Assembly: GCA_016177615.1 (NCBI GenBank)
Contig: JACOUX010000012.1
Span: forward strand, 65,318-97,317
DNA: 32,000 nt
Reading direction: 5' to 3'
DNA from: Candidatus Woesearchaeota archaeon
Lineage (GTDB): Archaea > Nanobdellota > Nanobdellia > Woesearchaeales > GW2011-AR4
In this document: one piece after another, positions 19,818 to 32,000 of the stretch
How the letters are laid out: each line of letters begins with the position of its first letter
Position numbering within the stretch: the stretch's first letter is position 1
Notes under the pieces: model-generated
Seen by the model: only the letters and a program-made list of their open reading frames with translations
Database searches by the model: none
What the model was told of the DNA's origin: nothing
Translations under genes and position numbers: made by a program

Positions 19818-19881
19818 TTGATTTTTTAACAAAACGAAGGACGTCAAAACCTTTTTAAACACTTATATATAATCCTTGATT

Positions 19882-21402
19882 ATGGGGGTCAGTAAGGTTA
19901 AAGAGCTTCTCGACATCAAAAAAGAGGCTTCTAGTGACAAGGCTGCTTCCGAATTGCAGCACAAGAAAGGAAAGTTGACTGCAAGAGAAAGGCTGAAGTA
20001 TCTTCTAGATGCTGATTCTTTTGTAGAGCTTGATGCCCTTGTGGAATTGCAGAGCAAGGAGCTTGAAGCCAAAAAGAAGGCAGGTGATGGTGTCATTGTC
20101 GGCCATGGCAAGATAAGCAAAAGGCCAGTTTATGTCTATGCCCAGGATTTTTCCTTCATGGGCGGCTCGATGGGAGAGATGCACAACAGGAAAATAGCCC
20201 ATGTCATGGAGCTGGCGCTGAAAACAGGATGCCCATGCATTGGGCTGCTTGACTCCGGGGGAGCAAGAATCCAGGAAGGGGTTGCTGCGCTCGACACAGG
20301 AGGAAAGATATTTCAGCTAAACACTTTGTCTTCGGGAGTTGTGCCTCAGATATCTGCTATTATGGGACCTTGCGCCGGAATCGCTGTTTATTCCCCTGCC
20401 TTGACAGACTTCATTTTGATGGTAAGGAAAACCAGCTACATGTTCATCACAGGGCCTGAAGTTATAAAGAATGTCACAGGCGAATCTATTGATTTTGAAG
20501 GGCTTGGAGGCTCTTCTGCCCATTCAGAAAAAAGCGGGGTTGCGCATTTTGCCGCAGATGATGAAAAGGAATGCCTTGATATGATAAAGGCTTTGTTAAG
20601 CTATCTTCCCCAGAATAATCTTGAAAACCCCACTTATTATGCCGCTGATTCGATGCGGGAGACAAAAAAGCTTGAATCAATTGTTCCTGAAGATCCAAAA
20701 AAGACTTATGACATCAAAGAAGCCATTTCAGAGATTTTTGACAGGAAAACATTTTTGGAAATTCATGCACATTATGCCCAAAATGCAGTTGTCGGGTTTG
20801 CAAGGCTAAACGGCCATGCTGTTGGCATTGTCGCGACGCAGCCTAAAGTTCTTGCGGGCTGCCTTGACATAAACTCGTCTGATAAGGTGTCAAGATTTGT
20901 GAGATTCTGCGATTGCTTTAATATCCCATTGGTAAATCTTGTTGATGTTACGGGCTACCTCCCAGGCACTTTTCAGGAGCATGGCGGAATCATTAGGCAC
21001 GGCGCGAAGGTACTTTTTGCGTATTCAGAAGCAACTGTGCCTAAAATGTCGCTTGTATTAAGAAAGGCTTACGGAGGCGCATATATTGCACTTGTCTCGA
21101 AAGAGATGGGATTTGACAAGGTCATTGCATGGCCGAATGCAGAGATCGCAGTAATGGGTGCAGAGCAGGCCGTTGGGATCATTAACAGGGATGAAATTGC
21201 CAAAAACCCAAAGTCAAAGGCAGCTCTTGCTGGGCAGTACAGGGAAAGATTCCTCAACCCTTACGTTGCTGCAAAGCTGGGCAAAATCGATATGATAATT
21301 GAACCAAAGGAAACGAGGAATGCGCTTATAAAATGCCTTGAGATGCTTTTGTCTAAGAGGGAGAAAAGGCCTGCCAAAAAGCATGGAAATATGCCGTTAT
21401 AA
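19882..21402 (+). CDS. pccB: Acyl-CoA carboxylase carboxyltransferase subunit (PccB / methylmalonyl-CoA carboxyltransferase 12S type). The track start is a TTG at 19876
   Basis: About 506 aa with VYVYAQDFSFMGGSMGEMH, two crotonase-like halves and RKAYGGAYIA. Confidence 0.9.
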   Translation: MGVSKVKELLDIKKEASSDKAASELQHKKGKLTARERLKYLLDADSFVELDALVELQSKELEAKKKAGDGVIVGHGKISKRPVYVYAQDFSFMGGSMGEMHNRKIAHVMELALKTGCPCIGLLDSGGARIQEGVAALDTGGKIFQLNTLSSGVVPQISAIMGPCAGIAVYSPALTDFILMVRKTSYMFITGPEVIKNVTGESIDFEGLGGSSAHSEKSGVAHFAADDEKECLDMIKALLSYLPQNNLENPTYYAADSMRETKKLESIVPEDPKKTYDIKEAISEIFDRKTFLEIHAHYAQNAVVGFARLNGHAVGIVATQPKVLAGCLDINSSDKVSRFVRFCDCFNIPLVNLVDVTGYLPGTFQEHGGIIRHGAKVLFAYSEATVPKMSLVLRKAYGGAYIALVSKEMGFDKVIAWPNAEIAVMGAEQAVGIINRDEIAKNPKSKAALAGQYRERFLNPYVAAKLGKIDMIIEPKETRNALIKCLEMLLSKREKRPAKKHGNMPL

Positions 21403-21432
21403 TTTTTTGTTTAGAAAAAAATATTAAACCAA

Positions 21433-21819
21433 ATGGAAGAGCTAATTGTCAAGGTTGACGGCAAGGAATACAAGGTTTTTGTAGAGGAAAATGAAGAAGG
21501 AAAAGTAATTGTGCACTGCGGCTCTGATGTTTATGAAGTTGAGACAAAAAAGGATGCAGAGCATTCTGCAATTGAAAGGCTGCATAGGAAATCAGGAGCG
21601 GAAGCAGGAAATGAGATAGTTGCGCCGTTGCCCGGAATAATTTATGATATAAAGTCCAAAGAAGGTGATAAATTAAAGCAGGGCCATGTTTTGTTCACGC
21701 TTATGGCAATGAAGATGGAAAATGAAGTCGCTGCTCCAAGGGATTGCATTGTCAAGGAAATTAAGGTCAAGAAGAATAGCAATGTCAATAGGGGAGATGT
21801 TTTGGCAGTGATTGAATAA
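21433..21819 (+). CDS. Biotin carboxyl carrier protein
   Basis: C-terminal biotinyl domain with VAPLPG and the biotinylation motif LMAMKMENEV (Lys codon 21712-21714). Confidence 0.85.
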   Translation: MEELIVKVDGKEYKVFVEENEEGKVIVHCGSDVYEVETKKDAEHSAIERLHRKSGAEAGNEIVAPLPGIIYDIKSKEGDKLKQGHVLFTLMAMKMENEVAAPRDCIVKEIKVKKNSNVNRGDVLAVIE

Positions 21820-21838
21820 ATTTAAAAGGTGATTTCAA

Positions 21839-22591
21839 ATGGAAAGAAGCAAGATAAAAGGAATGATTTTTGCTGCATTGTTTGCTGCACTTACAGGCGC
21901 GGTTGCGTGGTTTAAGATCCCTCTTCCTTTCACGCCCGTCCCTATTACTTTGCAGACCTTGATGGTTCTCCTGAGCGGAGCAGCCCTCGGCGCTTATTAC
22001 GGCGCTTTGTCAATGATAGTTTACCTGATTCTAGGGGTAATTGGATTGCCTGTCTTTGCAGGCGGCTCTTCAGGAATTCCTGCGCTGCTTGGGCCTACCG
22101 GAGGCTATCTGCTCAGCTATCCTGTTGCAGCATTTGTGGTTGGGAAGATGATTGAAAAGAAAAACCTAAGCGCGTTCCTAAAATACTTTTCATTTGCTGC
22201 AGTGCTGGTTTTTGTCATGTTTGTATTTGTTGATTCTGCACTAAAAATAGGAATAATGAAGCTTGGAAAAGATGCCATGGTCAATGTACTAAGCCAGCAG
22301 CAGAGGGTTATCCTAATTGCGGTAAGCGCTGCTGTTTTGCTCGGGCTTTTATTCCTTGTATATTACTCAAAAAAATCAAAGTCATTTTCCTTGGACACCA
22401 TTCTTGCCATGTTCGCAGGCACTTTGATAATTTATTTAATGGGCTCAATTCAAGGGAAATTCGTAACAGGGTTGCCTTGGAGCGCTGTATTTGTTGGATG
22501 GGTTTTGCCGTTCATTATAGGCGACACACTAAAGCTGCTGCTTGCAGCCTGGATATCAAAAAACATTGATGTTGGCAGATATATGCAATGA
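21839..22591 (+). CDS. bioY: BioY biotin-specific ECF S-component carrying an internal insertion of about 60 aa (two extra predicted TM helices)
   Basis: PITLQTLMVLLSGAALG, GPTGGYLLSYP and LPFIIGDTLKLLLAA. At 250 aa it exceeds the roughly 190 aa usual for BioY. The extra hydrophobic stretches are FSFAAVLVFVMFVFV and VILIAVSAAVLLGLLFLVYY. Confidence 0.85.
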   Translation: MERSKIKGMIFAALFAALTGAVAWFKIPLPFTPVPITLQTLMVLLSGAALGAYYGALSMIVYLILGVIGLPVFAGGSSGIPALLGPTGGYLLSYPVAAFVVGKMIEKKNLSAFLKYFSFAAVLVFVMFVFVDSALKIGIMKLGKDAMVNVLSQQQRVILIAVSAAVLLGLLFLVYYSKKSKSFSLDTILAMFAGTLIIYLMGSIQGKFVTGLPWSAVFVGWVLPFIIGDTLKLLLAAWISKNIDVGRYMQ

Positions 22592-23349
22592 AACCTAAGC
22601 TCATTTTGCTGGATATTTTCTCCTATAGCTGCATGAACTGCATGAGGTCTTTGGAGTTTATTAAAAGCCTGGACAGTGCATATAAGGGATCCGGCTTAGG
22701 GGCTGTTCTTGTGCACCCTCCTGAGTGGAAGTTTGAGAAAAATGGAATGAATATATCTGCTGCAATAAAACGCTATAATATCAAGTTTCCAATCATTATT
22801 GACCGGAATAAAAAGATAATCAGAAAATTTGGAATAAATTTCTGGCCGGCTCAGATTCTGGTTAATGGCAGGAAAATCATTTACAGGCATATAGGTGAAG
22901 GCAGCTATAAAAATCTGGAAAGGCTCATAGCAAAGTCCCTTGGAATAATATCAAAAAAAATATTTGCAAAAGAGCCAAATTATAGCAAATACCAAACCGT
23001 ATATTGCGGAAAAAGAAAAAAAGGAAGAATAGAAAGGCTAAACAAGAATCTGAAATTCGGGGTTGTTTATTCTGATGGAAATTGCAGCCAAAAAGAGGAA
23101 TTTTTGAAGCTATTTCAAGACTCTCCTGTTACCATATTGGCTAAAGGAAAAGCGGTTAATTTTGTAGCACAATCCTTTAATAAAAGGCCGGTTAGTTTGA
23201 ATATAAAAATAAATAACAAAAGCAAGAAAGTGTTATCTGTTGGCATGCCGCGATTATATAAGATTGCAAAGCTAGATAAGAGAAAGAAAAATAAATTAAC
23301 AATAACGCCAAGATCAGATATGGCAGTTTATTCATTTTCGTTCCAATGA
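22588..23349 (+). CDS. Thioredoxin-fold protein (CMNC) with a DipZ-C-terminal-like beta-sandwich domain
   Basis: FSYSCMNCMRSLEFIKSL...VLVHPPEWKFEK...NFWPAQILVNGRKIIYRHIGEGSY matches the DipZ-type redoxin pattern. The C-terminus ends AVYSFSFQ as in that family. ATGA overlaps on both sides at 22588-22591 and 23346-23349. Confidence 0.6.
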   Translation: MKPKLILLDIFSYSCMNCMRSLEFIKSLDSAYKGSGLGAVLVHPPEWKFEKNGMNISAAIKRYNIKFPIIIDRNKKIIRKFGINFWPAQILVNGRKIIYRHIGEGSYKNLERLIAKSLGIISKKIFAKEPNYSKYQTVYCGKRKKGRIERLNKNLKFGVVYSDGNCSQKEEFLKLFQDSPVTILAKGKAVNFVAQSFNKRPVSLNIKINNKSKKVLSVGMPRLYKIAKLDKRKKNKLTITPRSDMAVYSFSFQ

Positions 23350-24044
23350 TACAGGCAAAAAATGTTTATTTCAAGTACGAGGATGAGCTTATCCTGAAAA
23401 ATATAAGCCTTGAAATATATGAAGGCAGCTTCACCGCAATAATAGGCGCAAACGGCTCTGGAAAAACAACCTTGGCAAAGCATTTCAATGCCATTCTTCT
23501 GCCTGCAAAAGGCGATGTCCTTGTTGATGGAATCAGCACAAGAAAAGACGAGCTTAATGCAAGAAAAAACATAGGCTTTGTATTCCAGAATTTTGAGGAC
23601 CAGATTGTTTACTCGACTATTGAGGAGGATGTGGCATTCGGGCTTGAAAATCTTGGGCTGGAGCAGGATAAAATAAAAAGAAGGGCTGCAGATACTCTGA
23701 AAAGGCTAAGCATATCGCACCTCGCAAAAAGAAATGTCAATACTTTGTCGCTTGGGCAGAAGCAGCTTGCTGCATTAAGCGGAGTGCTTGCCATGAAGCC
23801 AAGGTGCATAGTTTTCGATGAGCCAACTACAATGCTTGATTCCAGAAACAAGAAGAGTATAATGGGAATTATCAAGGAATTAAATAAAAAGGATAAAATA
23901 ACAGTAATATTAGTGACAAACGTGCTTGATGATTTAAAATATGTGAATAATGTTGTTGTGCTAAAAGAAGGCAGGACTATATTCAACGATAAAAAATCAA
24001 AATTGAATAATAAAATTCTGAAAGTGGCGGGGTTATATGATTAA
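23346..24044 (+). CDS. ecfA: ECF-transporter ATPase (single copy, BioM/EcfA type)
   Basis: Walker A GANGSGKTT, Q-loop, signature LSLGQKQ, Walker B IVFDEPTTMLD. Confidence 0.9.
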   Translation: MIQAKNVYFKYEDELILKNISLEIYEGSFTAIIGANGSGKTTLAKHFNAILLPAKGDVLVDGISTRKDELNARKNIGFVFQNFEDQIVYSTIEEDVAFGLENLGLEQDKIKRRAADTLKRLSISHLAKRNVNTLSLGQKQLAALSGVLAMKPRCIVFDEPTTMLDSRNKKSIMGIIKELNKKDKITVILVTNVLDDLKYVNNVVVLKEGRTIFNDKKSKLNNKILKVAGLYD

Positions 24045-24753
24045 GCGCTTGACAATAGGCCAGTACAGGGAAAGATATTCCTTCATTCACGGGCTTGACG
24101 CGAGAATCAAGATTTTTTACGTGGTAGTCTTGGGATTTCTGTCATTCAGGCTGAAATTCGGCCTTGAAATGCTTATTTTTTCCCTGTTTGTTTTTGGCTT
24201 GGTATATTCTGCAAAGATGCGGCTTGGAGAGCTGAGCAAAAACCTAAGGCCATTCTATTCTGTTTTCATTTTTCTGGTTGTTATGTATCTGATATTTTCA
24301 AGAAGCCAGATTGAAAAAGGAATGATTTATTTATGGCGCTTTTTGATGCTTATAATAATCTCGCTTGCATTGACTTTTACAACCACGATAATGGATTTAA
24401 TAGCTGCAGTTGAATTCTTTTCAAAGCCGCTGAAGGTTTTTGGAGTGAAATCAAGAAATGTAGCGCTTATGGTTTCTGCAGCTGTGAGGTTCATCCCTGT
24501 GATGTTCATCAATTTTGAAAGGTCAAGGGAGGCAATGTCATCAAGGCTTGCAGACTTTCGCAGGATCAGGCATATAAAAGTCGTTGTTTTGCTTATGCTT
24601 CAAAAAATGCTCAAGTCCGCTTCCTGCTTGAGCGATGCGGTGTATGCCAGGCTCTATGATGAGAATATGGAAATCAATAAAATGCCGAAATTAAAAATAA
24701 ACGACTATATCTCTATGGTGGCCGTGGCTGCCTTTGCTGTTATTATTTACTAG
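24037..24753 (+). CDS. ecfT: ECF-transporter transmembrane T-component (BioN/EcfT/CbiQ type)
   Basis: 238 aa, 5-6 TM helices, coupling-helix region RFIPVMFINFERSREAMSSRLADF. It overlaps ecfA by 8 nt. Confidence 0.8.
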   Translation: MIKRLTIGQYRERYSFIHGLDARIKIFYVVVLGFLSFRLKFGLEMLIFSLFVFGLVYSAKMRLGELSKNLRPFYSVFIFLVVMYLIFSRSQIEKGMIYLWRFLMLIIISLALTFTTTIMDLIAAVEFFSKPLKVFGVKSRNVALMVSAAVRFIPVMFINFERSREAMSSRLADFRRIRHIKVVVLLMLQKMLKSASCLSDAVYARLYDENMEINKMPKLKINDYISMVAVAAFAVIIY

Positions 24754-24970
24754 CATTTCTCTGCCCGAACAGGATGCTGGCAAGTATGTTAAGCATCCAT
24801 GCCTGGAACACATTGATCCTGTACAGGCTCCCAAATACAAAATTCCAGAGCCACATTACAGGAAACGCAAGAATTAAGCCGACTAATGCGCTGATCACAA
24901 TTATCAGAAGGATTGCATAGCCTGTGTCTATAAGCTTCCTAAGGATTGGTATATTCCTGATTATGGACAT
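24743..24970 (-). CDS. Small two-TM hypothetical membrane protein (75 aa)
   Basis: Two clear hydrophobic helices. It is the only sizeable ORF in the spacer and is convergent with ecfT (11-nt overlap). No recognisable family. Confidence 0.35.
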   Translation of the reverse strand: MSIIRNIPILRKLIDTGYAILLIIVISALVGLILAFPVMWLWNFVFGSLYRINVFQAWMLNILASILFGQRNASK

Positions 24971-25046: not shown

Positions 25047-25445
25047 ATGCACAAAATCGAGCATCGCGTGATTTACGGAGACACTGATGCAGGCGGTGTT
25101 GTCTATTATGCAAATTACTTCAGGTGGTTTGAAAGCGGTAGAAGAGAGCTGTTCAGGAACCTTGGCATTGATTATAAGCTACTCCATGAAAAAGAGATAG
25201 TAAGCCCTGTCGTGGAATCGCACTGCAATTATTTCCATCCGGCAAAGTATGATGATATTGTAATTATTGAGACGAAAATCGCCGATATCAAAGAGAAAAG
25301 TGTAAAGTTTGAAAACATGGTTTTCAGGAAAAAGGGCAAAAAGCTGCTTGCATCAGGCTACACCATTAATGTTTTCGTTGATGCAAAAAAGATGAAGTCC
25401 ATCAAAATACCTGAAGATGTGAGGAAAAGGCTAAAGGTTGGCTAG
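25047..25445 (+). CDS. YbgC/4HBT-type hotdog acyl-CoA thioesterase
   Basis: VIYGDTDAGGVVYYANYFRWFESGRRELFR (catalytic Asp context) and hotdog length of 132 aa. Confidence 0.8.
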   Translation: MHKIEHRVIYGDTDAGGVVYYANYFRWFESGRRELFRNLGIDYKLLHEKEIVSPVVESHCNYFHPAKYDDIVIIETKIADIKEKSVKFENMVFRKKGKKLLASGYTINVFVDAKKMKSIKIPEDVRKRLKVG

Positions 25446-26167: not shown

Positions 26168-26202
26168 TTTGATTTATTTATGAAAATATCAATAATTTAA
26201 AT

Positions 26203-28116
26203 CTATTCCTCAAACATTCCTTCGTTCATCGCTTCCTGCCTTGCGGCCATTATCCAGGGATTAACCTTTCCATTGCCGTTGATTAATTGCTGATTATTTG
26301 CAAGATATTTTGCAACCGCTGTTGTTACAATCAAAACCTTTTTTTCCTTCGTCAGTGCCTCTTTCTGCGGCTTCATGCCTTTCAGCTCTTCCATGATGCT
26401 GTTGTTTTCTATGAATGATGTTGTCACATTGCCCCTTAAGAACTGCCTCTTGCTAAGGGCTGATTGGTGGAAAGGAATTGTTGTCTTGACTCCGTCAATT
26501 ACAAACTCGCCTAATGCCCTTTTCATTCTTGCAACTGCCTCATGCCTTGTGCTTCCCTGGCAGATAAGCAAGGCAACTAAGGAATCAAATTGCGGCAGGA
26601 TTTGGCAGCCGGAATAGCATGAACTGCTTATCCTTATGCCAGGACCGCCTGGGGGAAGGTAATTTACAATTGTGCCTGGAGAAGGTGCAAACTCATTTGA
26701 CGGGTCTTCTGCATTTATTCTGCATTCTATTGCATGGCTGCTCACTTTAATGTCTTCCTGCCTGTAAGCCAGCTTGGCCCCTTCAGCAAGCTTAATCTGC
26801 TCCTTAACAAGATCAATGCCTGTTACCATTTCTGTAACCCCATGCTCAACCTGTATTCTTGTATTCATCTCGATAAAAAAGAAATTTCTGTTTTTGTCAA
26901 GCAAAAATTCAACTGTTCCCGCACCTTCATACCCAATTGCCTTGACAGCCTCAACAGCCGCATTCCCCATTCTTTCCCGAAGCTCATTGTCAAGCGCAGG
27001 GCTTGGAGCCTCTTCAACAAGTTTTTGGTGCCTTCTTTGTATGCTGCAGTCCCTTTCCCAAAGATGGATAGCATTGCCATGCCTGTCAGCCAGAATCTGA
27101 AACTCTATGTGCCTCGGCTCTTCGAGGTATCTTTCAATGTATAACGAGCCGTCTCCAAAGGCATTTATTGCCTCGTTATAAGCACTATCGTAAGCATCAA
27201 AAATGTCTTCTTCCTTTGTAATGATCCTCATACCCTTTCCGCCTCCGCCGGCTGATGCCTTTAGCATGACTGGAAACCCGATTCTTCTTGCTATGTCCAA
27301 AGCGTGCTTCCTGCTCCTTAGGTCCTGCCGTAAGCCTTCTATAATAGGGACATTTGCCCTGTCCATTGCATTTTTAGCTTCTACCTTGTCACCTAGCTTT
27401 TCAATCATTTTTGATGAAGGGCCAATAAACTTGATGCCTTTTTTCTCGCATAATCTTGCGAATTTCGGATTTTGGGAGAGAAATCCATAGCCTGGGTGAA
27501 TAGCGTCGCATCCTGCCTCTATGGATATTTTCAGGATTTTTTTAATGTTGAGGTAGTTTTTTGGCTTTCCTATGTTGTATGCCCTGTCTGCAAACTTTAC
27601 AGCCAAGGAATCTTTTTCATCATCTGCATAAATAACAGCGCTTTCGATTCCCAATTCTCTGCATGCCCTTATGACACGCAAAGCTATTTCTCCCCTATTT
27701 GCTATCAGAATTCTCTTAAAGCGGCCATTGCCCGTGGGTTTTTTATCGCTTCTGTTGATTCCAAATCCGTTGGTTAGCGCTTCCAGAAAGGATTTGCCTG
27801 AAGGATGATTTAATATATGGTCAACGTGAGACTCATCAACATGAGGCAGTCTTTTTATGACACTAGTTGTTATAAAGCTGCCAACATCCCAATCCTTGGA
27901 TAAATTGAAAAAGCTCCTGCCGGGATTAACTATATGCTGCCTAAACAGGCTTTCAAAGTATCTGTAAACTACCGGGAACCTTTCCTTTATTTTAATAAAG
28001 GATGCCTTGGAAAGTGAATAAACATGCTCCATAGGCATTAATGACTTATTCAATAGGTCAACAATATATTTCTGCCTTAAAGTAAGCTCAAGGCGCCCTT
28101 TCTTGCTTTTGAGCAT
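26203..28116 (-). CDS. accC: Biotin carboxylase (AccC/PccA-type ATP-grasp) with an uncharacterised 132-aa N-terminal extension and a 67-aa C-terminal tail
   Basis: The core begins at residue 133: FKRILIANRGEIALRVIRACRELGI, MLKASAGGGGKGMRI, EMNTRIQVEHGVTE. No Met or obvious alternative start is seen at the core boundary, so the extension looks genuinely fused. Confidence 0.9.
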   Translation of the reverse strand: MLKSKKGRLELTLRQKYIVDLLNKSLMPMEHVYSLSKASFIKIKERFPVVYRYFESLFRQHIVNPGRSFFNLSKDWDVGSFITTSVIKRLPHVDESHVDHILNHPSGKSFLEALTNGFGINRSDKKPTGNGRFKRILIANRGEIALRVIRACRELGIESAVIYADDEKDSLAVKFADRAYNIGKPKNYLNIKKILKISIEAGCDAIHPGYGFLSQNPKFARLCEKKGIKFIGPSSKMIEKLGDKVEAKNAMDRANVPIIEGLRQDLRSRKHALDIARRIGFPVMLKASAGGGGKGMRIITKEEDIFDAYDSAYNEAINAFGDGSLYIERYLEEPRHIEFQILADRHGNAIHLWERDCSIQRRHQKLVEEAPSPALDNELRERMGNAAVEAVKAIGYEGAGTVEFLLDKNRNFFFIEMNTRIQVEHGVTEMVTGIDLVKEQIKLAEGAKLAYRQEDIKVSSHAIECRINAEDPSNEFAPSPGTIVNYLPPGGPGIRISSSCYSGCQILPQFDSLVALLICQGSTRHEAVARMKRALGEFVIDGVKTTIPFHQSALSKRQFLRGNVTTSFIENNSIMEELKGMKPQKEALTKEKKVLIVTTAVAKYLANNQQLINGNGKVNPWIMAARQEAMNEGMFEE

Positions 28117-28263
28117 AATCCATTATTTTCTTAACTTTTTATAAAGATTGCGCTGATTTTAGTGTAAAAACCATATAATAAAACAGATAGTTTAGAAAAT
28201 CTATATCAGAGACCATTAGAGCAGAAAGGTATTTAAAGCGACAAAAGTTATAAAATCTGCCAA
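28117..28263. promoter_or_regulatory. Divergent promoter region between accC and the FabZ-like/thiolase genes
   Basis: 147-nt AT-rich spacer. TATA-like gtatttaaag at 28229-28238 lies about 30 nt before the ATG at 28264. On the minus strand, the reverse complement of aactttttataaag gives a TATA-like ctttataaaaagtt roughly 20-30 nt before the accC start. Confidence 0.35.
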
Positions 28264-28755
28264 ATGAGCCAATTCAATGAATTAAAAAATAAAGACGGGG
28301 AGATAGACAAAGAAAGGATAAAAAAGATAATTCCCTATAATGAGCATTTCCTTTTTATTGACAAAGTGCTCAGCCTGGAAGGAAATAAAATTGTGGCCAT
28401 AAAAGATCTAAGTGGCAAAGAAGATTTCCTGAAAGGCCATTTTGTGGGGTTTCCGATAATGCCTGGTGCTTTGACTGTTGAAGGCATGGGCCAAGCTGGA
28501 ACTTTGCTTGCGAGGGGCAATATCCCCAACCATAATGAAAAGGACGTTCTTGCTTATAGGCTTAAAGAAGTAAAATTTTCAGCGCCGATTTTCCCGCATG
28601 ATACTATAAGGTTTGAAGTTGAATCGATAGCCCAAGATGAAAGAAGTGCAATAATGCAAGGCAAAGCTTTTGTTAAAGATGCATTAGTTGCAGAAGCCCT
28701 TATGATGCTTGCAATCGTAAACAGGCAAGAGTTTAGGTCAAAGTTTGGAAAGTAG
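28264..28755 (+). CDS. FabZ/FabA-like 3-hydroxyacyl-thioester dehydratase (hotdog fold)
   Basis: IPYNEHFLFIDKVLSLEGNKIVAIKDLSGKEDFLKGHFVGFPIMPGALTVEGMGQ matches the FabZ signature LPHRyPFLLVDRV...NepfFqGHFP..PvmPGVL.iEamAQ, including the catalytic His and Glu. Confidence 0.75.
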   Translation: MSQFNELKNKDGEIDKERIKKIIPYNEHFLFIDKVLSLEGNKIVAIKDLSGKEDFLKGHFVGFPIMPGALTVEGMGQAGTLLARGNIPNHNEKDVLAYRLKEVKFSAPIFPHDTIRFEVESIAQDERSAIMQGKAFVKDALVAEALMMLAIVNRQEFRSKFGK

Positions 28756-28766
28756 CGGTGTTCTTG

Positions 28767-29702
28767 ATGTACATTAAAGGCGTAGGCATGACAAAATTCG
28801 GGGCTCAGCAGGCTCCGAGCCAAGAACTTATTTACGAAGCTGTAAACGAGGCAGTGTATGATGCTGAGTGCAGCTTAGATGACATAGATGCGATAGTAAT
28901 TTCCTCAATAGACTCTGAAAAGAACGGAGAGAGGCAAAGGCTTTTTCCTAATGTGGTGGCTAGCATTTTAAGAAAAAAAGTTCCTATGCTTAACCCTACA
29001 GCCGTTTGCGGTGGCGGAGGAGCCGCAATATGGACTGCAAACCGGCTTGATTATGGCACAATACTTGTTGTTGGGGTAGAGAAGCTCCTGACAACCACTA
29101 CAATGCAGACCACTGATGAGATAATGATGGCTGCTGAAAGGATTTATGAGCAGGCTGAGGGAATGAATTTTCCTGCTGAAAACGCCCTTGTTGCGCAGCA
29201 GTACCTACTTAAATATGGGGCTACAAGCGATGATCTTGCTTTGGTGGCTTACAAGAACCACCAGAATGCCTACAATAATCCAAAGGCTAGGTTTTATAAA
29301 AAAGAAGTTACGTTAAAGCAGATCAAAAGCTCCCCTGTTGTTGCTTCTCCTTTGAGGCTTTTTGACTGCAGCTTGTCTGTCAACGGAGCTGCGGCAGCTA
29401 TAATTACAAAAGAAAAAACGGATATTGAGATAGCCGGCTCCGCATTATGCACCGATAGGCTTTCTGCATTTGAAAGCGAGGACATGACTTCATGGGAAGC
29501 CTCAAGAAAAGCTGCAGAAGATGCCTATAAGCAGGCAGGGATAGGGCCAAAGGATATAAGCATTGCAGAGCTGCATGACGCTTTTACTTCTGTTGAGCTT
29601 ATCTCCTATGAAGACTTGGGTTTTTGCAATAAAGGCGAGGCAAAGAATATGATAAGGAAAGGCATCACCAATATTGATGGGAAGCAAATGTATTTACTGT
29701 AA
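28767..29702 (+). CDS. SCPx-type thiolase paralog A, C-terminally truncated relative to the family (possible pseudogene or recoding site). The track start is a GTG at 28758
   Basis: IKGVGMTKFG, nucleophile context NPTAVCGGGGAAIW, AELHDAFTSVELISYEDLGFCNKGEA. The ORF stops (..NIDGKQMYLL*) just before the expected LPvNtsGG...GHP...GG segment that carries the C-terminal catalytic residues. Confidence 0.7.
   Translation: MYIKGVGMTKFGAQQAPSQELIYEAVNEAVYDAECSLDDIDAIVISSIDSEKNGERQRLFPNVVASILRKKVPMLNPTAVCGGGGAAIWTANRLDYGTILVVGVEKLLTTTTMQTTDEIMMAAERIYEQAEGMNFPAENALVAQQYLLKYGATSDDLALVAYKNHQNAYNNPKARFYKKEVTLKQIKSSPVVASPLRLFDCSLSVNGAAAAIITKEKTDIEIAGSALCTDRLSAFESEDMTSWEASRKAAEDAYKQAGIGPKDISIAELHDAFTSVELISYEDLGFCNKGEAKNMIRKGITNIDGKQMYLL
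29136..29684 (+). repeat. Direct repeat copy 1 (inside thiolase A), offset 2316 nt from copy 2
   Basis: By direct comparison, 29490-29684 matches 31806-32000 at 194 of 195 nt. 29136 to about 29375 matches about 31452-31691 with clustered mismatches. 29376-29489 is strongly divergent. Confidence 0.85.
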
Positions 29703-31071
29703 AGGCAGCATAATAAAGCAGAAGGGCTCAAGATTAAAGGTGATTGGCATAACCAAAGTTACTATTCCATCTCCTATGCATCCTATAATTCCTTATAACA
29801 TCATTCTTCTTGAAGACGAATTTGGCAACAGGTTGCCAAAAAAAACAATGAGGGAGTTTAAAATAGGGGATAACTACATAGAGCAAAAGGCAAAAACTGA
29901 TGAAGCTGTCTCTGTGGTCAAGATAAAATATGATATTTACGAAGCTATCAAAGAGTCTGTTGAGCTTCTTAACAGCTTTAAATTTGATAAAGATGATAAG
30001 ATCCTAATCAAGCCGAGCATCATAGCTGCAGCATACCCGTATCAAACTGTTAACACTAATCCGGATTTCCTGAATGCACTGTTAATTCTTCTTCTCGAGT
30101 ATGGAATAAAAAAAGAGAACATAATTGTTGCAGAACAGGCGTTAATAGGCTCAAATTCAATAGACTCTGCTTCCAAAGCAGGCATAATCGATGTATGCAA
30201 AAGGCACGGAATTGAATTCGCTGATATTTCAAAAGGTCCTTTTGAGGCAGTTGAATTTGATGGTTACCCATTCAAAATTTTCAAGGAAGCGTTGAAGAGA
30301 AAGCTGGTTAATGTTCCTGTAATGAAGACTAATTTTCAGATTGGAATCTCTGGAGCAATGGAGAACCTTTCAAGGCTCGCTGATGAGCAAACTCAAAGAA
30401 AAATGTACTATGATGGCATTACTAAGGCAATTCCAAAGCTGGCAAGGGCCATCAATGCATTTACAATAGCGGATGCAAGCAATGGCATGCAAGGCCAAGG
30501 CCCGCTTTCTTTGGGCGAGCCTGCTTTCCTTAACCTTGTGTTATCTGGCAAGAATGCTGCTGCGCTTGACAAGGTTTTTTGCAACATTGCAATGCTTCAA
30601 GCTCCTTTTTATGTTAATGCAAGCCTGCCGCTTAAAGAAATTGAAGTTGTTGGAAATGAAATAGATTCATTGAAATACCCGATAAAAGCTCCTGTGGCTG
30701 ATGAAACTCCGCATCCTGACATCAAGGTTATTGACGGCAAAGCCTGCCCTGCATGCCTGAACCTGATGTATGGGCTTACATCAAGGCTTGTAGGGTTAAG
30801 GGGGGAGCAGATGAGCATAGTAATAGGCTCAATGATTACAGAAGATGTTTTGAAAGGCAAAGATAGGGTAATTGCGCTTGGCGATTGCTCTATAAGAAAA
30901 CTGCAGGAGTTGAAGTTGGATAATATTGAGAAAATAAATGAAGATATGGACCATGTTGAGCAGCTTGTTCTGCTTAAGAAGCTCCTGACAACCAAAGGAG
31001 TGCCAAAGATTAGCTCCATAGACAAGGTTAAGTCAAAAATGCAGATGCTTCTTTCGAAGGTGGTTCGCTGA
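29677..31071 (+). CDS. Fusion protein: DUF35-like (half zinc knuckle plus OB fold) N-terminus joined to a DUF362 domain with a Cys-containing C-terminal extension
   Basis: KCIYCKGS...LKVIGITKVTIPSPMHPIIPYNIILLEDEFGNRLPKK...FKIGDNY fits the DUF35 second knuckle plus OB barrel. ILIKPS, TNPDFLNALLILLLEYG, NVPVMKTNFQIGISGAMENL, TIADASNGMQGQGPLSLGEP and LVLSGKNAAALDKVFCNIAML fit the DUF362 pattern. The start region overlaps the thiolase A 3' end in another frame. Confidence 0.65.
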   Translation: MGSKCIYCKGSIIKQKGSRLKVIGITKVTIPSPMHPIIPYNIILLEDEFGNRLPKKTMREFKIGDNYIEQKAKTDEAVSVVKIKYDIYEAIKESVELLNSFKFDKDDKILIKPSIIAAAYPYQTVNTNPDFLNALLILLLEYGIKKENIIVAEQALIGSNSIDSASKAGIIDVCKRHGIEFADISKGPFEAVEFDGYPFKIFKEALKRKLVNVPVMKTNFQIGISGAMENLSRLADEQTQRKMYYDGITKAIPKLARAINAFTIADASNGMQGQGPLSLGEPAFLNLVLSGKNAAALDKVFCNIAMLQAPFYVNASLPLKEIEVVGNEIDSLKYPIKAPVADETPHPDIKVIDGKACPACLNLMYGLTSRLVGLRGEQMSIVIGSMITEDVLKGKDRVIALGDCSIRKLQELKLDNIEKINEDMDHVEQLVLLKKLLTTKGVPKISSIDKVKSKMQMLLSKVVR

Positions 31072-32000
31072 TGTTCATCAAAGGAGTTGGCATGACAAAA
31101 TTTGGAATGCAGGATGATAAAAGTCCTCATATGGTTTATGAATCAGTTATGGAAGCGCTTGATGATTCTGAGATATCCATGAACGATATAGATGCTGTTG
31201 TAATATCAAACAATGATATATTAAGCAATGGAGAGAGGCAAAGGCACAGCGCATCAATGGTAAGCAGCATGTTTCAGAAAAAGATGCCGATAATAGCTGT
31301 GCCGGCAGGATGTGCAGGCGGTGGAACAGCGCTTTGGGCTGCGGCCAATATCCAAAAGTCTGAAAATTACAGAAATATGCTTGTTATTGGATATGAAAAG
31401 ATGGTTTCAAACCTAAGCAAAAGAGTAACAGATGAGATGCTTATGGGAACAGAAAGGATTTATGAGCAGGCTGAGGGAATGAATTTTCCTGCTGAAAACG
31501 CCCTTGTTGCGCAGCAATACATGCTCAGATATGGGGCTACAAGCGATGATCTTGCTTTGGTGGCTTACAAGAACCACCAGAATGCCTACAACAATCCAAA
31601 GGCTAGGTTTTATAAGAAACAAGTTTCAATTGACGACATCAAAAGCTCCCCTGTTGTTGCTTCTCCGCTAAAGCTTTTTGACTGCAGCATTCCGGCTAAT
31701 GGTGCTGCGGCACTTGTATTGTCCAAAGACCCTAGCGATGTTGAATTAGTTGCTTCTGCATCGGAAAGCGATTACCTTGCACCTTTTGAACGGGACGACC
31801 TTATTTCATGGGAAGCCTCAAGAAAAGCTGCAGAAGATGCCTATAAGCAGGCAGGGATATGGCCAAAGGATATAAGCATTGCAGAGCTGCATGACGCTTT
31901 TACTTCTGTTGAGCTTATCTCCTATGAAGACTTGGGTTTTTGCAATAAAGGCGAGGCAAAGAATATGATAAGGAAAGGCATCACCAATATTGATGGGAAG
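31071..32000 (+). CDS. SCPx-type thiolase paralog B, 3'-partial (runs off the window; not in the supplied ORF track)
   Basis: My translation from the ATG at 31071 (overlapping the upstream TGA by 1 nt) gives 310 open codons: MFIKGVGMTKFGMQDDK...PAGCAGGGTALW...AELHDAFTSVELISYEDLGFCNKGEAKNMIRKGITNIDGK. Confidence 0.8.
   Translation, partial: MFIKGVGMTKFGMQDDKSPHMVYESVMEALDDSEISMNDIDAVVISNNDILSNGERQRHSASMVSSMFQKKMPIIAVPAGCAGGGTALWAAANIQKSENYRNMLVIGYEKMVSNLSKRVTDEMLMGTERIYEQAEGMNFPAENALVAQQYMLRYGATSDDLALVAYKNHQNAYNNPKARFYKKQVSIDDIKSSPVVASPLKLFDCSIPANGAAALVLSKDPSDVELVASASESDYLAPFERDDLISWEASRKAAEDAYKQAGIWPKDISIAELHDAFTSVELISYEDLGFCNKGEAKNMIRKGITNIDGK
31452..32000 (+). repeat. Direct repeat copy 2 (inside thiolase B); identity still running at the window edge
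   Basis: Same comparison as copy 1. The single difference in the distal block is g/t in gggata[g/t]ggcc (Gly versus Trp). Confidence 0.85.

What the first reader, a model, noticed from the sequence alone, without database searches (positions are those of the whole stretch)
19876..32000. Self-contained biotin/acyl-CoA-carboxylase supercluster joined to FabZ-like, thiolase, DUF35-DUF362 and thioesterase genes in an archaeon: candidate ACP-independent acyl-chain-building system
Twelve kb encode a full biotin-dependent acyl-CoA carboxylase: a PccB-type carboxyltransferase, a BCCP with the AMKM motif, and a biotin carboxylase. The cluster also supplies its own cofactor through BioY, a single ECF ATPase, a T-component and BirA. 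Alongside sit a YbgC-type thioesterase, a bacterial-type FabZ-like dehydratase, two SCPx-type thiolase paralogs and a DUF35-like/DUF362 fusion. The flanks (Trm1, DRG, TrmB, aMBF1, RadB) mark the host as archaeal. Archaea generally lack ACP/FAS II, and an ACP-independent thiolase/DUF35-based route has only been proposed from comparative genomics. Finding malonyl-CoA supply, a condensing enzyme, a dehydratase and a release thioesterase together is what a CoA-based fatty-acid or polyketide-like module would look like. No ACP, ketoreductase or enoyl reductase is visible in the window, so the pathway is incomplete as seen.
Basis: partly seen in the sequence, partly recalled or inferred. Interest (0 to 1): 0.8.

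Follow-up and report, generated by a model that had tools for sequence, protein, structure and literature searches.

The report
Carrier-protein-free fatty-acid gene cluster in Woesearchaeota
A tiny groundwater archaeon carries a conserved gene cluster that looks like a way to build fatty acids on coenzyme A without the usual carrier protein or condensing enzyme, and the same gene set in ultra-small CPR bacteria may explain their puzzling "incomplete" fatty-acid pathways.

Summary
Window 19876-32000 encodes a three-subunit acyl-CoA carboxylase, BioY plus ATPase plus T-component, BirA, a YbgC-type thioesterase, a FabZ-family dehydratase, two SCP2-type thiolase paralogs and a DUF35-fold::DUF362 fusion. 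The host is a Candidatus Woesearchaeota (DPANN) archaeon.

The linkage is strongly conserved in about 40 related species-level genomes. FabZ-like lies upstream of the thiolase-DUF362 pair in 35/35 loci and biotin carboxylase in 29/33.

These are FabG-type ketoreductases, then GpsA and two PlsC-type acyltransferases. A canonical HMG-CoA synthase/thiolase/DUF35 trio, where present, is a separate module.

The same gene set forms one operon in CPR bacteria, with FabK-like enoyl reductases. This includes the cultured Minisyncoccus archaeiphilus, whose authors call the genes' role "unclear". No ACP or ketosynthase appears in any annotated locus.

The DUF362 part has a LarA-like fold.

Caveats: thiolase 1 and the DUF362 N-terminus are cut by a ~250-nt gap, probably an assembly artefact. 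No enoyl reductase is linked in this clade. Function is inferred, not shown. The idea overlaps published work on a Sulfolobus thiolase/DUF35 synthase and on "bacterial FA genes" in Woesearchaeota.

Verdict: a new variant of a known kind. Interest 0.72.

The parts
19876..21402 (+). Acyl-CoA carboxylase carboxyltransferase subunit (PccB/MmdA-type, 508 aa)
   Evidence: PF01039 scores 593 bits over the full length. The NCBIfam mmdA subfamily scores 714.8, below its 998.8 cut-off. Conserved next to BCCP in relatives.
21433..21819 (+). Biotin carboxyl carrier protein (128 aa) with the AMKM biotinylation motif
   Evidence: PF00364. The motif is read directly in the translation.
21839..22591 (+). BioY biotin-specific S component
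   Evidence: PF02632 scores 130 bits.
22588..23349 (+).
   Evidence: Weak Redoxin, Thioredoxin_8 and Thioredoxin_10 hits. Found at the same position in 9 related loci.
23346..24044 (+). Single ECF-type ABC ATPase (BioM-like)
   Evidence: PF00005 scores 103 bits.
24037..24753 (+). ECF T component (CbiQ/BioN-like)
   Evidence: PF02361.
24743..24970 (-). Conserved 75-aa ORF with two hydrophobic segments, function unknown; not an ACP
   Evidence: Translations. Homologs lie next to BirA in 24 related loci. No Pfam hit on record. No DSL-type phosphopantetheine site.
25047..25445 (+). YbgC/FadM-family acyl-CoA thioesterase (132 aa)
   Evidence: PF13279. TIGR00051 scores 108.1 against a cut-off of 68.7. 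Present in 14 related loci.
25442..26167 (-). Biotin-protein ligase BirA (no N-terminal repressor domain)
   Evidence: PF03099 plus PF02237.
26203..28116 (-). Biotin carboxylase (637 aa) with an unassigned N-terminal extension of about 130 aa
   Evidence: Three BC domains at residues 133-570. TIGR00514 scores 638.2 against 626.5. The extension aligns from residue 1 in Woesearchaeota relatives.
28117..28263 (.). Conserved divergent promoter region between the biotin carboxylase and FabZ-like genes
   Evidence: Length is 146-157 nt in most genomes. Invariant elements TTTTTATAAAG (28136-28146) and AGAAAGnTATTTAAA (28224-28238) lie about 25-30 nt from the two start codons. Reading them as archaeal BRE/TATA boxes for leaderless mRNAs is inference.
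28264..28755 (+). FabZ-family beta-hydroxyacyl dehydratase (163 aa)
   Evidence: PF07977 scores 75.5 bits. Best NCBIfam hits are FabZ models, below their cut-offs. The motif GHFVGFPIMPGALTVEGMGQ keeps the catalytic His and Glu. Present upstream of thiolase 1 in 35/35 loci.
28767..29702 (+). Thiolase 1 (SCP2/archaeal type), truncated after residue ~306 of 372
   Evidence: Pfam Thiolase_N plus only positions 6-80 of 144 in Thiolase_C_1. Orthologs are 372-374 aa.
29677..31071 (+). DUF35-fold zinc-ribbon/OB domain fused to a DUF362 (LarA-like fold) domain; its first ~19 residues are missing here
   Evidence: PF04015. AF2 model of ortholog P0090 has mean pLDDT 82. Foldseek matches the N-terminus to DUF35 chains 6ok1_B, 7pxp, 6esq_F and 5m3k_B (E about 3e-4 to 6e-4). 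It matches the rest to LarA-family racemases (E 5e-8).
31071..32000 (+). Thiolase 2 (paralog, 67% identical to thiolase 1), cut by the window end
29489..29684 (+). Near-identical DNA tract shared with 31805-32000; a second tract 29136-29275 is shared with 31452-31591. These are gene-conversion tracts between the two thiolase genes. The copy-1 tract ends exactly at the deletion junction.
   Evidence: The same pattern occurs in other genomes, with exact runs up to 750 nt.

Best explanation
The window holds the upstream two-thirds of a conserved Woesearchaeota lipid-synthesis supercluster. I think it most likely builds or elongates fatty-acyl chains on CoA thioesters, without ACP or a ketosynthase, and passes them to glycerol-3-phosphate.

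Proposed working:
1. BioY/ATPase/T-component imports biotin, and BirA loads it on BCCP.
2. BC plus BCCP plus the PccB-type carboxyltransferase make malonyl-CoA (or methylmalonyl-CoA).
3. The two thiolase paralogs are held by the zinc-ribbon/OB (DUF35-fold) domain of the DUF362 fusion protein, and they carry out the Claisen condensation. This would resemble the thiolase/DUF35 complexes of Methanothermococcus and Sulfolobus.
4. A FabG-type reductase, encoded just beyond the window in relatives, reduces the 3-ketoacyl-CoA.
5. The FabZ-like protein dehydrates it.
6. An enoyl reductase closes the cycle. This is FabK-like in the CPR versions and acyl-CoA dehydrogenase/ETF in one Nanoarchaeia genome. 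None is linked in the window's own clade.
7. The YbgC-type thioesterase releases or edits acyl-CoA.
8. GpsA and two PlsC-type acyltransferases, 5-9 kb beyond the DUF362 gene in relatives, esterify the chains to sn-glycerol-3-phosphate.

Shown: gene identities, the conserved linkage, the DUF35 and LarA-like folds, and the same gene set as a single operon in CPR bacteria. Inferred: complex formation, CoA rather than ACP as carrier, the direction of the pathway, use of malonyl-CoA, any catalytic role for the DUF362 domain, and the product.
For: - Family assignments are.
- Synteny holds in 44 genome loci plus metagenome contigs.
- Conservation counts are FabZ 35/35, BC 29/33, second thiolase 31/32, SDR 23/24, GpsA 12/16 and PlsC 11/16.
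- An SDR next to the thiolases passes the FabG equivalog cut-off (311.8 against 297.75).
- GpsA and PlsC pass their models.
- In L048 and L049 the thiolase-DUF362-thiolase-FabG genes run directly into PlsC-PlsC-GpsA on one strand. L049 inserts acyl-CoA dehydrogenase plus EtfB/EtfA, which are CoA-specific enzymes.
- CPR bacteria carry thiolase, DUF35::DUF362, FabG, FabZ-like, FabK-like, PlsC, BC, BCCP, BirA and CT as one operon (L055 and L056; L050, L053 and L054). L056 has a FabA::NMO fusion.
- The cultured Minisyncoccus archaeiphilus has MNSC_05910 to MNSC_05980 in the same order (PMC12281837).
- No PP-binding/ACP, FabD or FabH/F gene is listed in the annotated loci L005, L007 and L053-L056.
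- The DUF35 fold of the fusion's N-terminus is supported. The four zinc-ribbon Cys are invariant across archaeal and CPR members.
- A conserved divergent promoter joins the carboxylase arm and the FabZ-thiolase arm.
- An ACP-free thiolase/DUF35/SDR/dehydratase synthase has been reconstituted in Sulfolobus (10.1101/2024.07.05.601840).
Against: - No enoyl reductase is linked in the window's clade.
- SCP2-type thiolases are not known to use malonyl-CoA, and the Sulfolobus enzyme did not use it. The role of the carboxylase is therefore unexplained by precedent.
- The DUF362 domain has few invariant residues and no known function.
- ACP absence could be checked only within about 10 kb of the cluster.
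- In this window thiolase 1 and the zinc ribbon are truncated.
- The conserved methyltransferase and CoA transferase have no assigned step.
- DPANN archaea are generally thought to scavenge lipids.
- 4 of 33 loci lack the carboxylase next to the FabZ-thiolase genes.
Confidence: 0.55

Rival explanations
1. The thiolase, SDR, hotdog dehydratase, acyl-CoA dehydrogenase/ETF and CoA transferases form a fermentative short-chain acyl-CoA pathway. This would be butyrate- or caproate-type chain elongation, or beta-oxidation-like breakdown, serving energy or redox balance rather than membrane lipid synthesis.
For: ACAD plus EtfAB lie in L049. A crotonase and a dihydrolipoamide-dehydrogenase-like gene lie in L038 and L036, and glutaconate-type CoA transferase subunits in L026. 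A family-III CoA transferase is present in 13 loci. Woesearchaeota are described as fermenters (PMC8204110).
Against: An ATP-consuming carboxylase is tightly and divergently linked in 29/33 loci. The reductase is FabG-type and the dehydratase FabZ-type, which are the R-specific, biosynthetic families. GpsA and PlsC acyltransferases sit in or beside the same operon. The ACAD/ETF genes occur in only 1 of 45 loci.
Confidence: 0.12
2. The thiolases and the DUF35-fold protein are an acetoacetyl-CoA-forming entry module for isoprenoid (mevalonate) synthesis. The carboxylase and Fab-like genes are merely neighbours.
For: The N-terminal domain has the fold of the DUF35 subunit of the thiolase/HMG-CoA synthase complex (6esq_F). 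In CPR locus L053 the thiolase-DUF362-SDR genes lie 4-7 kb from HMG-CoA synthase, HMG-CoA reductase and a GHMP kinase. Five Woesearchaeota loci carry HMG-CoA synthase nearby.
Against: In those five loci HMG-CoA synthase has its own thiolase (about 40% identical to thiolases 1 and 2) and its own stand-alone DUF35. 40 of 45 loci have no HMG-CoA synthase within 10 kb. Woesearchaeota are reported to use the MEP pathway (PMC8204110). The strict FabZ/FabG/carboxylase/PlsC linkage is left unexplained.
Confidence: 0.08
3. The cluster makes a specialised acyl product rather than bulk membrane fatty acids. Candidates are a methylated or branched lipid, a polyketide-like molecule, or a PhlABC/MucABC-style acyl-transfer product.
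For: A SAM methyltransferase is conserved and often fused to the SDR (21 loci). A fatty-acid-hydroxylase-family gene occurs in 3 loci. The FabZ-like protein also hits the ApeI-like model. The thiolases resemble PhlC and MucABC-type components. The carboxyltransferase is closest to methylmalonyl/propionyl-CoA-type enzymes.
Against: The cluster is near-universal and syntenic across a whole archaeal clade, sits among housekeeping genes (RadB, ribosomal protein S2) and pairs with GpsA/PlsC. In CPR bacteria it is embedded among PlsY, FakA/DegV and CdsA-like phospholipid genes.
Confidence: 0.12
4. In this particular genome the condensing module is broken. A real ~250-nt deletion has inactivated thiolase 1 and damaged the zinc ribbon, so the cluster is decaying here.
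For: The truncation is in the deposited assembly. P0121 (311 aa) and P0001 (464 aa) are the NCBI proteins. No full-length variant of either was found in the protein collection.
Against: The window ends at 32000, the base homologous to 29684, which is the deletion junction in copy 1. That points to an assembly break at the same repeat k-mer in both copies. Six other MAGs of the same groundwater project have internal gaps in these thiolase genes. For one of them, an independent assembly of reads from the same study contains the missing 49 nt. Independent Logan contigs of the window's own genome stop 30 nt into the repeat.
Confidence: 0.15

Closest known systems
Sulfolobus acidocaldarius ACP-independent fatty acid synthase complex (ketothiolase Saci_1121 / DUF35 Saci_1120 / SDR reductase Saci_1104 / MaoC dehydratase Saci_1085, plus MDR enoyl-CoA reductase Saci_1115; bioRxiv 10.1101/2024.07.05.601840)
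   Same: An archaeal SCP2-type thiolase encoded next to a DUF35-fold zinc-ribbon/OB protein. An SDR ketoreductase and a hotdog dehydratase. CoA thioesters as the presumed carrier. No ACP.
   Different: Here there are two thiolase paralogs flanking the DUF35-fold gene. The DUF35 fold is fused to a LarA-like DUF362 domain. The dehydratase is FabZ-type rather than MaoC-type. No MDR enoyl reductase is present. An acyl-CoA carboxylase is tightly linked, whereas the Sulfolobus thiolase did not use malonyl-CoA. GpsA and PlsC acyltransferases follow.
Archaeal acetoacetyl-CoA thiolase / HMG-CoA synthase / DUF35 complex (Methanothermococcus thermolithotrophicus, PDB 6ESQ/6ET9)
   Same: The same thiolase subfamily (6esq_A, E 5.6e-54) and the same DUF35 fold (6esq_F). 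The expected logic is the same: a partner enzyme pulls an unfavourable condensation forward.
   Different: No HMG-CoA synthase belongs to the conserved set. The partner is a DUF362 domain fused to the DUF35 fold. Where HMG-CoA synthase occurs, it has its own thiolase and DUF35.
Bacterial type II fatty acid synthesis (AccABCD, FabD, ACP, FabH/F, FabG, FabZ, FabI/K) with PlsC/GpsA phospholipid assembly
   Same: FabG passes the equivalog model in relatives. A FabZ-family dehydratase, FabK-like reductases (CPR versions), a biotin-dependent carboxylase, GpsA and PlsC are all present.
   Different: No ACP, FabD or ketosynthase was seen. Thiolases occupy the condensing position. The carboxylase is the three-subunit PccB type. 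The host is an archaeon.
"Incomplete" fatty-acid gene set of the cultured CPR bacterium Minisyncoccus archaeiphilus PMX.108 (MNSC_05910-05980; PMC12281837)
   Same: The same gene set in a similar order: thiolase, DUF362 (with COG1545/DUF35), FabG, FabA-like, FabK, PlsC, AccC, BCCP.
   Different: It is bacterial and forms a single operon, with one thiolase, a short (~340 aa) fusion protein and a linked FabK. The Woesearchaeota version has two thiolases, a ~130-aa C-terminal extension on the fusion protein, a divergent carboxylase arm and no linked FabK.
LarA lactate racemase superfamily (DUF2088, nickel-pincer nucleotide enzymes)
   Same: The DUF362 part shares the overall fold (Foldseek E 5e-8). 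DUF362 and DUF2088 belong to the same Pfam clan, CL0471 (PMC11770544).
   Different: A different Pfam family with no detectable sequence similarity to solved LarA structures. LarA's catalytic His and cofactor-binding residues were not identified. It is fused to a thiolase-docking domain.

Membership tests
Three-subunit biotin-dependent acyl-CoA carboxylase (BC + BCCP + PccB-type CT) | Full-length carboxyltransferase domain | tested here: met
   PF01039 scores 593 bits over residues 28-506 of 508.
Three-subunit biotin-dependent acyl-CoA carboxylase (BC + BCCP + PccB-type CT) | Biotin carboxylase with its N, ATP-grasp and C domains, reaching the accC model cut-off | tested here: met
   Three Pfam domains. 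TIGR00514 scores 638.2 against 626.5, and NF006367 scores 655.1 against 597.
Three-subunit biotin-dependent acyl-CoA carboxylase (BC + BCCP + PccB-type CT) | BCCP with the biotinyl-lysine motif (A/E)MKM | tested here: met
   PF00364. AMKM is read in the translation.
Three-subunit biotin-dependent acyl-CoA carboxylase (BC + BCCP + PccB-type CT) | Substrate is acetyl-CoA (product malonyl-CoA) rather than propionyl-CoA | not tested
   The best NCBIfam model is the mmdA subfamily, below its cut-off. Specificity residues were not examined.
FabZ (3-hydroxyacyl-ACP dehydratase) | FabA/FabZ hotdog domain with the catalytic His...Glu motif | tested here: met
   PF07977 scores 75.5 bits. The motif GHFVGFPIMPGALTVEGMGQ is read directly; comparison with the E. 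coli FabZ motif is from my own knowledge.
FabZ (3-hydroxyacyl-ACP dehydratase) | Reaches the NCBIfam equivalog cut-offs for FabZ | tested here: not met
   NF000582 scores 102.3 against 113. TIGR01750 scores 97.5 against 155.15.
FabZ (3-hydroxyacyl-ACP dehydratase) | Acts on ACP-bound substrates | not testable with these tools
   No ACP gene was seen in any annotated locus. Substrate carrier is unknown.
Thiolase/DUF35 complexes (archaeal ACAT-HMGCS-DUF35; Sulfolobus FAS complex) | SCP2/archaeal-type thiolase with a nucleophilic Cys and a C-terminal GHP His | tested here: met
   Full-length orthologs align end to end with 7yvy_A and 6esq_A and keep these motifs. In the window, thiolase 1 lacks the C-terminal part and thiolase 2 is cut by the window end.
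Thiolase/DUF35 complexes (archaeal ACAT-HMGCS-DUF35; Sulfolobus FAS complex) | Adjacent protein with a four-Cys zinc ribbon plus OB fold (DUF35) | tested here: met
   Foldseek matches 6ok1_B, 7pxp_A/E, 6esq_F and 5m3k_B (E 3e-4 to 6e-4, probability 1.00). C7, C10, C21 and C24 are invariant in 22 sequences. No Pfam DUF35 model reached threshold. The window copy lacks C7 and C10.
Thiolase/DUF35 complexes (archaeal ACAT-HMGCS-DUF35; Sulfolobus FAS complex) | Physical complex between the thiolase and the DUF35 protein | not testable with these tools
   Inferred from gene adjacency (31/32 and 35/35) and from the fold.
Thiolase/DUF35 complexes (archaeal ACAT-HMGCS-DUF35; Sulfolobus FAS complex) | Partner set of the Sulfolobus synthase (MaoC dehydratase, MDR enoyl-CoA reductase) | tested here: not met
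   The dehydratase is FabZ-type. MaoC is present in only 4 loci, always beside the HMG-CoA synthase module. No MDR reductase is present.
Canonical mevalonate-entry module (HMG-CoA synthase + thiolase + DUF35) | HMG-CoA synthase encoded with the thiolase/DUF35 pair | tested here: not met
   Absent from the window and from 40 of 45 loci. In the other 5, HMG-CoA synthase (TIGR00748 439.9 against 353.35) comes with a separate thiolase 3 and stand-alone DUF35.
Bacterial type II FAS | ACP, FabD and a ketosynthase (FabH/FabF/FabB) | tested here: not met
   None appears among the precomputed Pfam calls within about 10 kb in L005, L007 and L053-L056. Whole genomes could not be searched. The Minisyncoccus supplement is stored only in part.
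Bacterial type II FAS | FabG ketoreductase | tested here: met
   The relative's SDR scores 311.8 on TIGR01830 against 297.75. It lies beyond the window, and 23/24 loci have an SDR downstream.
Bacterial type II FAS | Enoyl reductase (FabI/K/L/V) | tested here: inconclusive
   FabK-like NMO genes occur only in the CPR versions. ACAD/ETF occurs in L049. A dienoyl-CoA-reductase/FabL-like SDR occurs in 4 loci, below cut-off. None is linked in the window's clade.
LarA superfamily (NPN-dependent 2-hydroxyacid racemases) | LarA fold | tested here: met
   Foldseek matches 9eia, 9q3j, 7s91 and 6d6z with E 5e-8 to 1e-4, but TM-scores are only 0.29-0.41. The model has mean pLDDT 82.
LarA superfamily (NPN-dependent 2-hydroxyacid racemases) | DUF2088/LarA sequence family with catalytic His and cofactor-binding residues | tested here: not met
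   The domain is PF04015 (DUF362), not DUF2088. A profile search of PDB sequences finds no LarA. Invariant residues in the domain are T143, P145, Q170, K183, N246 and D315, with no conserved His.
Group I ECF biotin transporter (BioMNY type) | BioY plus one ATPase plus a T component in one operon | tested here: met
   PF02632, PF00005 and PF02361 in consecutive overlapping genes. The BioMNY naming is from my own knowledge.

The most novel reading that the evidence does not exclude
The thiolase(s) plus the DUF35::LarA-like fusion protein could be a third kind of fatty-acid condensing machine. It would use carboxylase-made malonyl-CoA directly on CoA thioesters, with the DUF362 domain supplying the decarboxylation or pulling step. 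The machine would be shared, by transfer, between DPANN archaea and CPR bacteria. It would let an archaeon make bacterial-type glycerol-3-phosphate ester lipids. It would also explain how "FAS-incomplete" ultra-small bacteria make or elongate their own acyl chains.
Probability: 0.25. Interest if true: 0.9.

Novelty: new variant of a known kind. Interest (0 to 1): 0.72.

Why it matters
Whether DPANN archaea and CPR bacteria can make their own membrane lipids is an open question. So is how far the archaeal/bacterial "lipid divide" is really fixed. Published surveys note scattered "bacterial fatty-acid genes" (FabG, FabZ, FabI, G3P dehydrogenase) in Woesearchaeota. They call the CPR sets incomplete because ACP and the ketosynthase are missing.

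This cluster offers a concrete candidate for the missing condensing step: an archaeal-type thiolase docked to a DUF35::DUF362 protein. It ties that step to a dedicated carboxylase and to glycerol-3-phosphate acyltransferases. It also gives the uncharacterised DUF362 family its first pathway context.

Because the same operon is present in a cultured organism (Minisyncoccus archaeiphilus), the hypothesis can be tested directly.

Tried and rejected
- **Extending the contig.** Exact-protein look-ups for the window's own contig failed for four proteins. The region beyond 32000 had to be inferred from relatives.
- **DNA search for the junction.** A 50-nt pattern from the DUF362/thiolase 2 junction found nothing in JGI metagenomes.
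- **Independent assembly of the window's genome.** Logan contigs exist but stop at the first thiolase repeat. They cannot settle whether the truncation is real.
- **The 75-aa ORF as a hidden ACP.** Rejected. It has two hydrophobic segments and no phosphopantetheine-site motif, although it is conserved.
- **"KAS III-like" gene as the missing ketosynthase.** Rejected. It is an archaeal HMG-CoA synthase that passes the equivalog cut-offs.
- **Woesearchaeota methyltransferase as a cyclopropane-fatty-acid synthase.** Not supported. It shows no BLASTP similarity to the CMAS-like methyltransferase of the CPR operon and has no NCBIfam hit.
- **DUF362 as the missing enoyl reductase.** Made less likely by the CPR operons, which carry both DUF362 and FabK-like reductases.
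- **Sequence-profile search of PDB with the fusion family.** Only chance-level hits.
- **ACP, AcpS, FabD and FabH in the Minisyncoccus annotation table.** Nothing found, but the stored file covers only part of the genome, so this is inconclusive.
- **tRNA and Rfam scans of the window.** Nothing found.

Full report
**What is in the window**

They are:

- a PccB/MmdA-type carboxyltransferase (19876-21402)
- a BCCP with the AMKM motif (21433-21819)
- BioY (21839-22591)
- one ABC ATPase (23346-24044)
- a CbiQ-type T component (24037-24753)
- a YbgC/FadM acyl-CoA thioesterase above its NCBIfam cut-off (25047-25445)
- BirA (25442-26167, minus strand)
- a biotin carboxylase above the accC equivalog cut-off (26203-28116, minus strand)
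- a FabA/FabZ-family hotdog protein (28264-28755)
- a thiolase (28767-29702)
- a DUF362 protein (29677-31071)
- a second thiolase that runs off the window (31071-32000)

Two genes were missed. One is a redoxin/thioredoxin-like gene inside the transporter operon (22588-23349). The other is a conserved 75-aa ORF with two hydrophobic segments (24743-24970, minus strand).

The flanks carry Trm1, a DRG-type GTPase, TrmB, an MBF1-like HTH protein and RadB. The identical proteins in the public collection are named Candidatus Woesearchaeota archaeon and sit on a 97,318-bp contig.

**A defect in this copy**

Thiolase 1 stops at 311 aa, whereas about 120 homologs have 372-374 aa. It covers only positions 6-80 of the 144-position Thiolase_C_1 model.

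The DUF362 protein starts at KCIYCKG. Every relative starts MIIRWxCxxCxKKWIYPxEKCxYCKG. The four Cys of that ribbon are invariant across archaeal and CPR members. So about 250 nt are missing across the junction at 29684/29686.

I think this is an assembly artefact, for four reasons:

1. The two thiolase genes share near-identical DNA tracts. These are 29136-29275 with 31452-31591, and 29489-29684 with 31805-32000.
2. The window ends at 32000. That base is homologous to 29684, the junction itself. This would be expected if the contig ends there and the assembler broke at the same repeat edge in both copies.
3. Independent Logan contigs of this same genome all stop 30 nt into the first repeat.
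4. Six other MAGs of the same groundwater project show internal gaps in these thiolase genes. For one of them (L005), an independent contig from reads of the same study (L006) carries the 49 nt that the MAG lacks.

I could not retrieve reads or the rest of the contig. A real deletion remains possible, and I put it at about 0.15.

**Conservation**

A search of one genome per species with an alignment of the DUF362 protein returned 44 loci. Nearly all are Woesearchaeota/Nanoarchaeia MAGs. I mapped them by BLASTP against reference proteins.

The recurrent order is as follows, where (-) marks a gene on the opposite strand:

1. [RadB] - CT - BCCP
2. a variable biotin-uptake block
3. small membrane ORF (-), optional thioesterase, BirA (-), BC (-)
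4. FabZ-like - thiolase 1 - DUF35::DUF362 - (FabG) - thiolase 2
5. (family-III CoA transferase) - methyltransferase, alone or fused to an SDR - FabG-like SDR
6. TRAM - LigT - ribosomal protein S2
7. GpsA (-) - PlsC (-) - PlsC (-)

Where enough flank is available, the counts are:

| Feature | Loci with it / loci with enough flank |
|---|---|
| FabZ-like upstream | 35/35 |
| Biotin carboxylase upstream | 29/33 |
| Thiolase immediately downstream | 31/32 |
| SDR downstream | 23/24 |
| GpsA within 10 kb | 12/16 |
| PlsC within 10 kb | 11/16 |

One of the SDRs passes the FabG equivalog cut-off. GpsA and one PlsC pass their models.

In the two most divergent archaeal loci (L048, L049), thiolase-DUF362-thiolase-FabG run straight into PlsC-PlsC-GpsA on one strand. 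L049 also inserts an acyl-CoA dehydrogenase with EtfB/EtfA.

The 147-nt region between the biotin carboxylase and FabZ-like genes is conserved in length. It has two invariant A/T-rich elements, each 25-30 nt from a start codon. From the known architecture of archaeal promoters, I read these as BRE/TATA boxes for leaderless transcripts. That would join the carboxylase arm and the FabZ-thiolase arm in one regulatory unit, under archaeal signals.

**Not the mevalonate entry**

In five loci a gene I first labelled KAS III-like is an archaeal HMG-CoA synthase (439.9 bits against a cut-off of 353.35). It is followed by a third thiolase, a stand-alone DUF35, a MaoC dehydratase and another SDR. The canonical trio therefore exists as a separate, optional module. 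The thiolase 1/thiolase 2/DUF362 set is something else. Woesearchaeota are also reported to use the bacterial MEP pathway (PMC8204110).

**The fusion protein**

An AlphaFold2 model of a full-length ortholog has mean pLDDT 82 and pTM 0.83. I compared it with solved structures.

- Residues 1 to about 100 match the DUF35 subunits of thiolase complexes. These are Ltp2-ChsH2, benzoylsuccinyl-CoA thiolase BbsA, the Methanothermococcus thiolase/HMG-CoA synthase complex, PhlB and MucB.
- The remainder matches LarA-family nickel-pincer racemases (E 5e-8, but TM-scores only 0.3-0.4).

DUF362 and the LarA N-domain family are in one Pfam clan, and DUF362 is used only as an outgroup in the LarA literature (PMC11770544). 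No paper in the library mentions DUF362 together with thiolase.

Sequence profiles find no solved relative. The residues invariant across domains in the DUF362 part are T143, P145, Q170, K183, N246 and D315, with no conserved His. LarA-like chemistry is therefore not established.

The fusion family is small. Only 64 clusters at 50% identity reach E <= 1e-30 among 1.84 billion representatives. They fall into two length classes, about 340 aa and about 480 aa.

**The same system in CPR bacteria**

The short class belongs to Parcubacteria, Nealsonbacteria and related bacteria. In L055, next to NusA, the genes form a single operon: thiolase - DUF35::DUF362 - FabG - OCD - FabZ-like - two FabK-like NMO genes - two PlsC - BC - BCCP - BirA - CT.

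L056 has the same set, together with BioY, a CMAS-like methyltransferase, a FabA::NMO fusion and PlsY. L053 and L054 place the genes among PlsY, FakA/DegV, CdsA-like and isoprenoid genes.

The cultured Minisyncoccus archaeiphilus has MNSC_05910 (thiolase), 05920 (DUF362 with COG1545), 05930 (FabG), 05940 (FabA-like), 05950 (FabK), 05960 (PlsC), 05970 (AccC) and 05980 (BCCP). Its describers write that how these genes support fatty-acid synthesis "remains unclear" (PMC12281837).

None of the annotated loci lists an ACP, FabD or ketosynthase.

**Interpretation**

The best-supported reading is a CoA-thioester-based fatty-acyl synthesis or elongation system. A DUF35-docked thiolase takes the place of ketosynthase plus ACP. 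FabG and a FabZ-like enzyme do the next two steps, and the enoyl reductase is variable. A dedicated carboxylase and glycerol-3-phosphate acyltransferases are attached.

The precedent is the Sulfolobus thiolase/DUF35/SDR/MaoC complex (10.1101/2024.07.05.601840). This system differs from it in several ways:

- the tight carboxylase linkage, although the Sulfolobus thiolase did not use malonyl-CoA
- a FabZ-type dehydratase
- the paired thiolases
- the DUF362 fusion
- its presence in both DPANN and CPR

Open points remain. They are the enoyl reductase in the window's clade, what consumes malonyl-CoA, what DUF362 does, and the roles of the methyltransferase and CoA transferase. Rivals are a fermentative acyl-CoA pathway, mevalonate entry and a specialised product. 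Each explains part of the gene set, but none explains the strict linkage to the carboxylase and to GpsA/PlsC.

**Novelty**

"Bacterial fatty-acid genes" and G3P dehydrogenase in Woesearchaeota have been noted before (PMC8204110, PMC10936187, PMC6431249). ACP-independent archaeal fatty-acid synthesis has been shown in Sulfolobus.

Four things appear to be new:

- the defined architecture
- the thiolase/DUF35::DUF362 candidate for the missing condensing step
- its linkage to the carboxylase
- its sharing with CPR bacteria

I rate this a new variant of a known kind, with interest 0.72.

Noticed in passing
window 8176-11514 (-): An AMP-forming acetyl-CoA synthetase (1112 aa) is interrupted by an intein carrying a LAGLIDADG endonuclease domain. 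It could supply acetyl-CoA to the cluster.
   Followed up: no
window 29136-29275 / 31452-31591 and 29489-29684 / 31805-32000; also L014, L029, L030, L007: The two thiolase paralogs share long exact DNA runs in their C-terminal two-thirds in many genomes: 750 nt in L014, 704 in L029, 327 in L030 and 153 in L007. The first ~360 nt always stay at about 55% identity. This looks like recurrent gene conversion with a protected, diverged N-terminal third. It would fit a heteromer with specialised halves.
   Followed up: partly
L005/L010, L011, L017, L021, L024, L036 (thiolase genes): MAGs of the NC_groundwater project carry frame-breaking internal gaps in the thiolase genes. For L005, an independent Logan contig (L006) from reads of the same study contains the missing 49 nt. 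Deposited proteins from these MAGs may be wrongly split or truncated.
   Followed up: partly
window 28117-28263: The divergent intergenic region has a conserved length and two invariant TATA-like elements. It also has a conserved A/T-rich middle segment that could be a regulator site.
   Followed up: partly
window 24743-24970 (-): A 75-aa ORF with two hydrophobic segments has no family assignment but is conserved next to BirA in 24 related loci.
   Followed up: partly
window 22588-23349 (+): A redoxin/thioredoxin-like protein is encoded between BioY and the ECF ATPase, with overlapping stop and start codons. It holds the same position in 9 related loci.
   Followed up: no
window 27720-28116 (-), N-terminus of the biotin carboxylase: The biotin carboxylase has an N-terminal extension of about 130 aa with no Pfam hit. 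It is conserved in Woesearchaeota but absent from the 508-511-aa CPR enzymes.
   Followed up: no
L049 13542-16914; L038 and L036 ~12.5-14.8 kb; L026 16.0-19.2 kb: Variable CoA-ester enzymes are inserted into the cluster in single genomes. L049 has an acyl-CoA dehydrogenase plus EtfB/EtfA. L038 has a crotonase, and L038 and L036 have a dihydrolipoamide-dehydrogenase-like gene. L026 has three glutaconate-type CoA-transferase-like genes.
   Followed up: partly
L055 (JGI 3300009769) and protein P0242: P0242 is labelled Candidatus Pacearchaeota archaeon at NCBI. It is 85% identical to a Parcubacteria protein, and its JGI contig carries NusA, so the archaeal label is probably a binning error.
   Followed up: partly
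L056 13611-15128: In a Nealsonbacteria genome the FabA/FabZ-like domain is fused to an NMO/FabK-like domain. This is a dehydratase-enoyl reductase fusion, and it supports a functional link between the two.
   Followed up: no
window 19047-19817 (+): A 256-aa ORF between RadB and the carboxyltransferase has no Pfam hit and no counterpart in any related locus.
   Followed up: no
window 4122-4634 (-), 3430-4080 (-), 5312-7100 (-): The upstream flank carries a Cas4-like (PF01930) protein, a transaldolase and a split transketolase.
   Followed up: no
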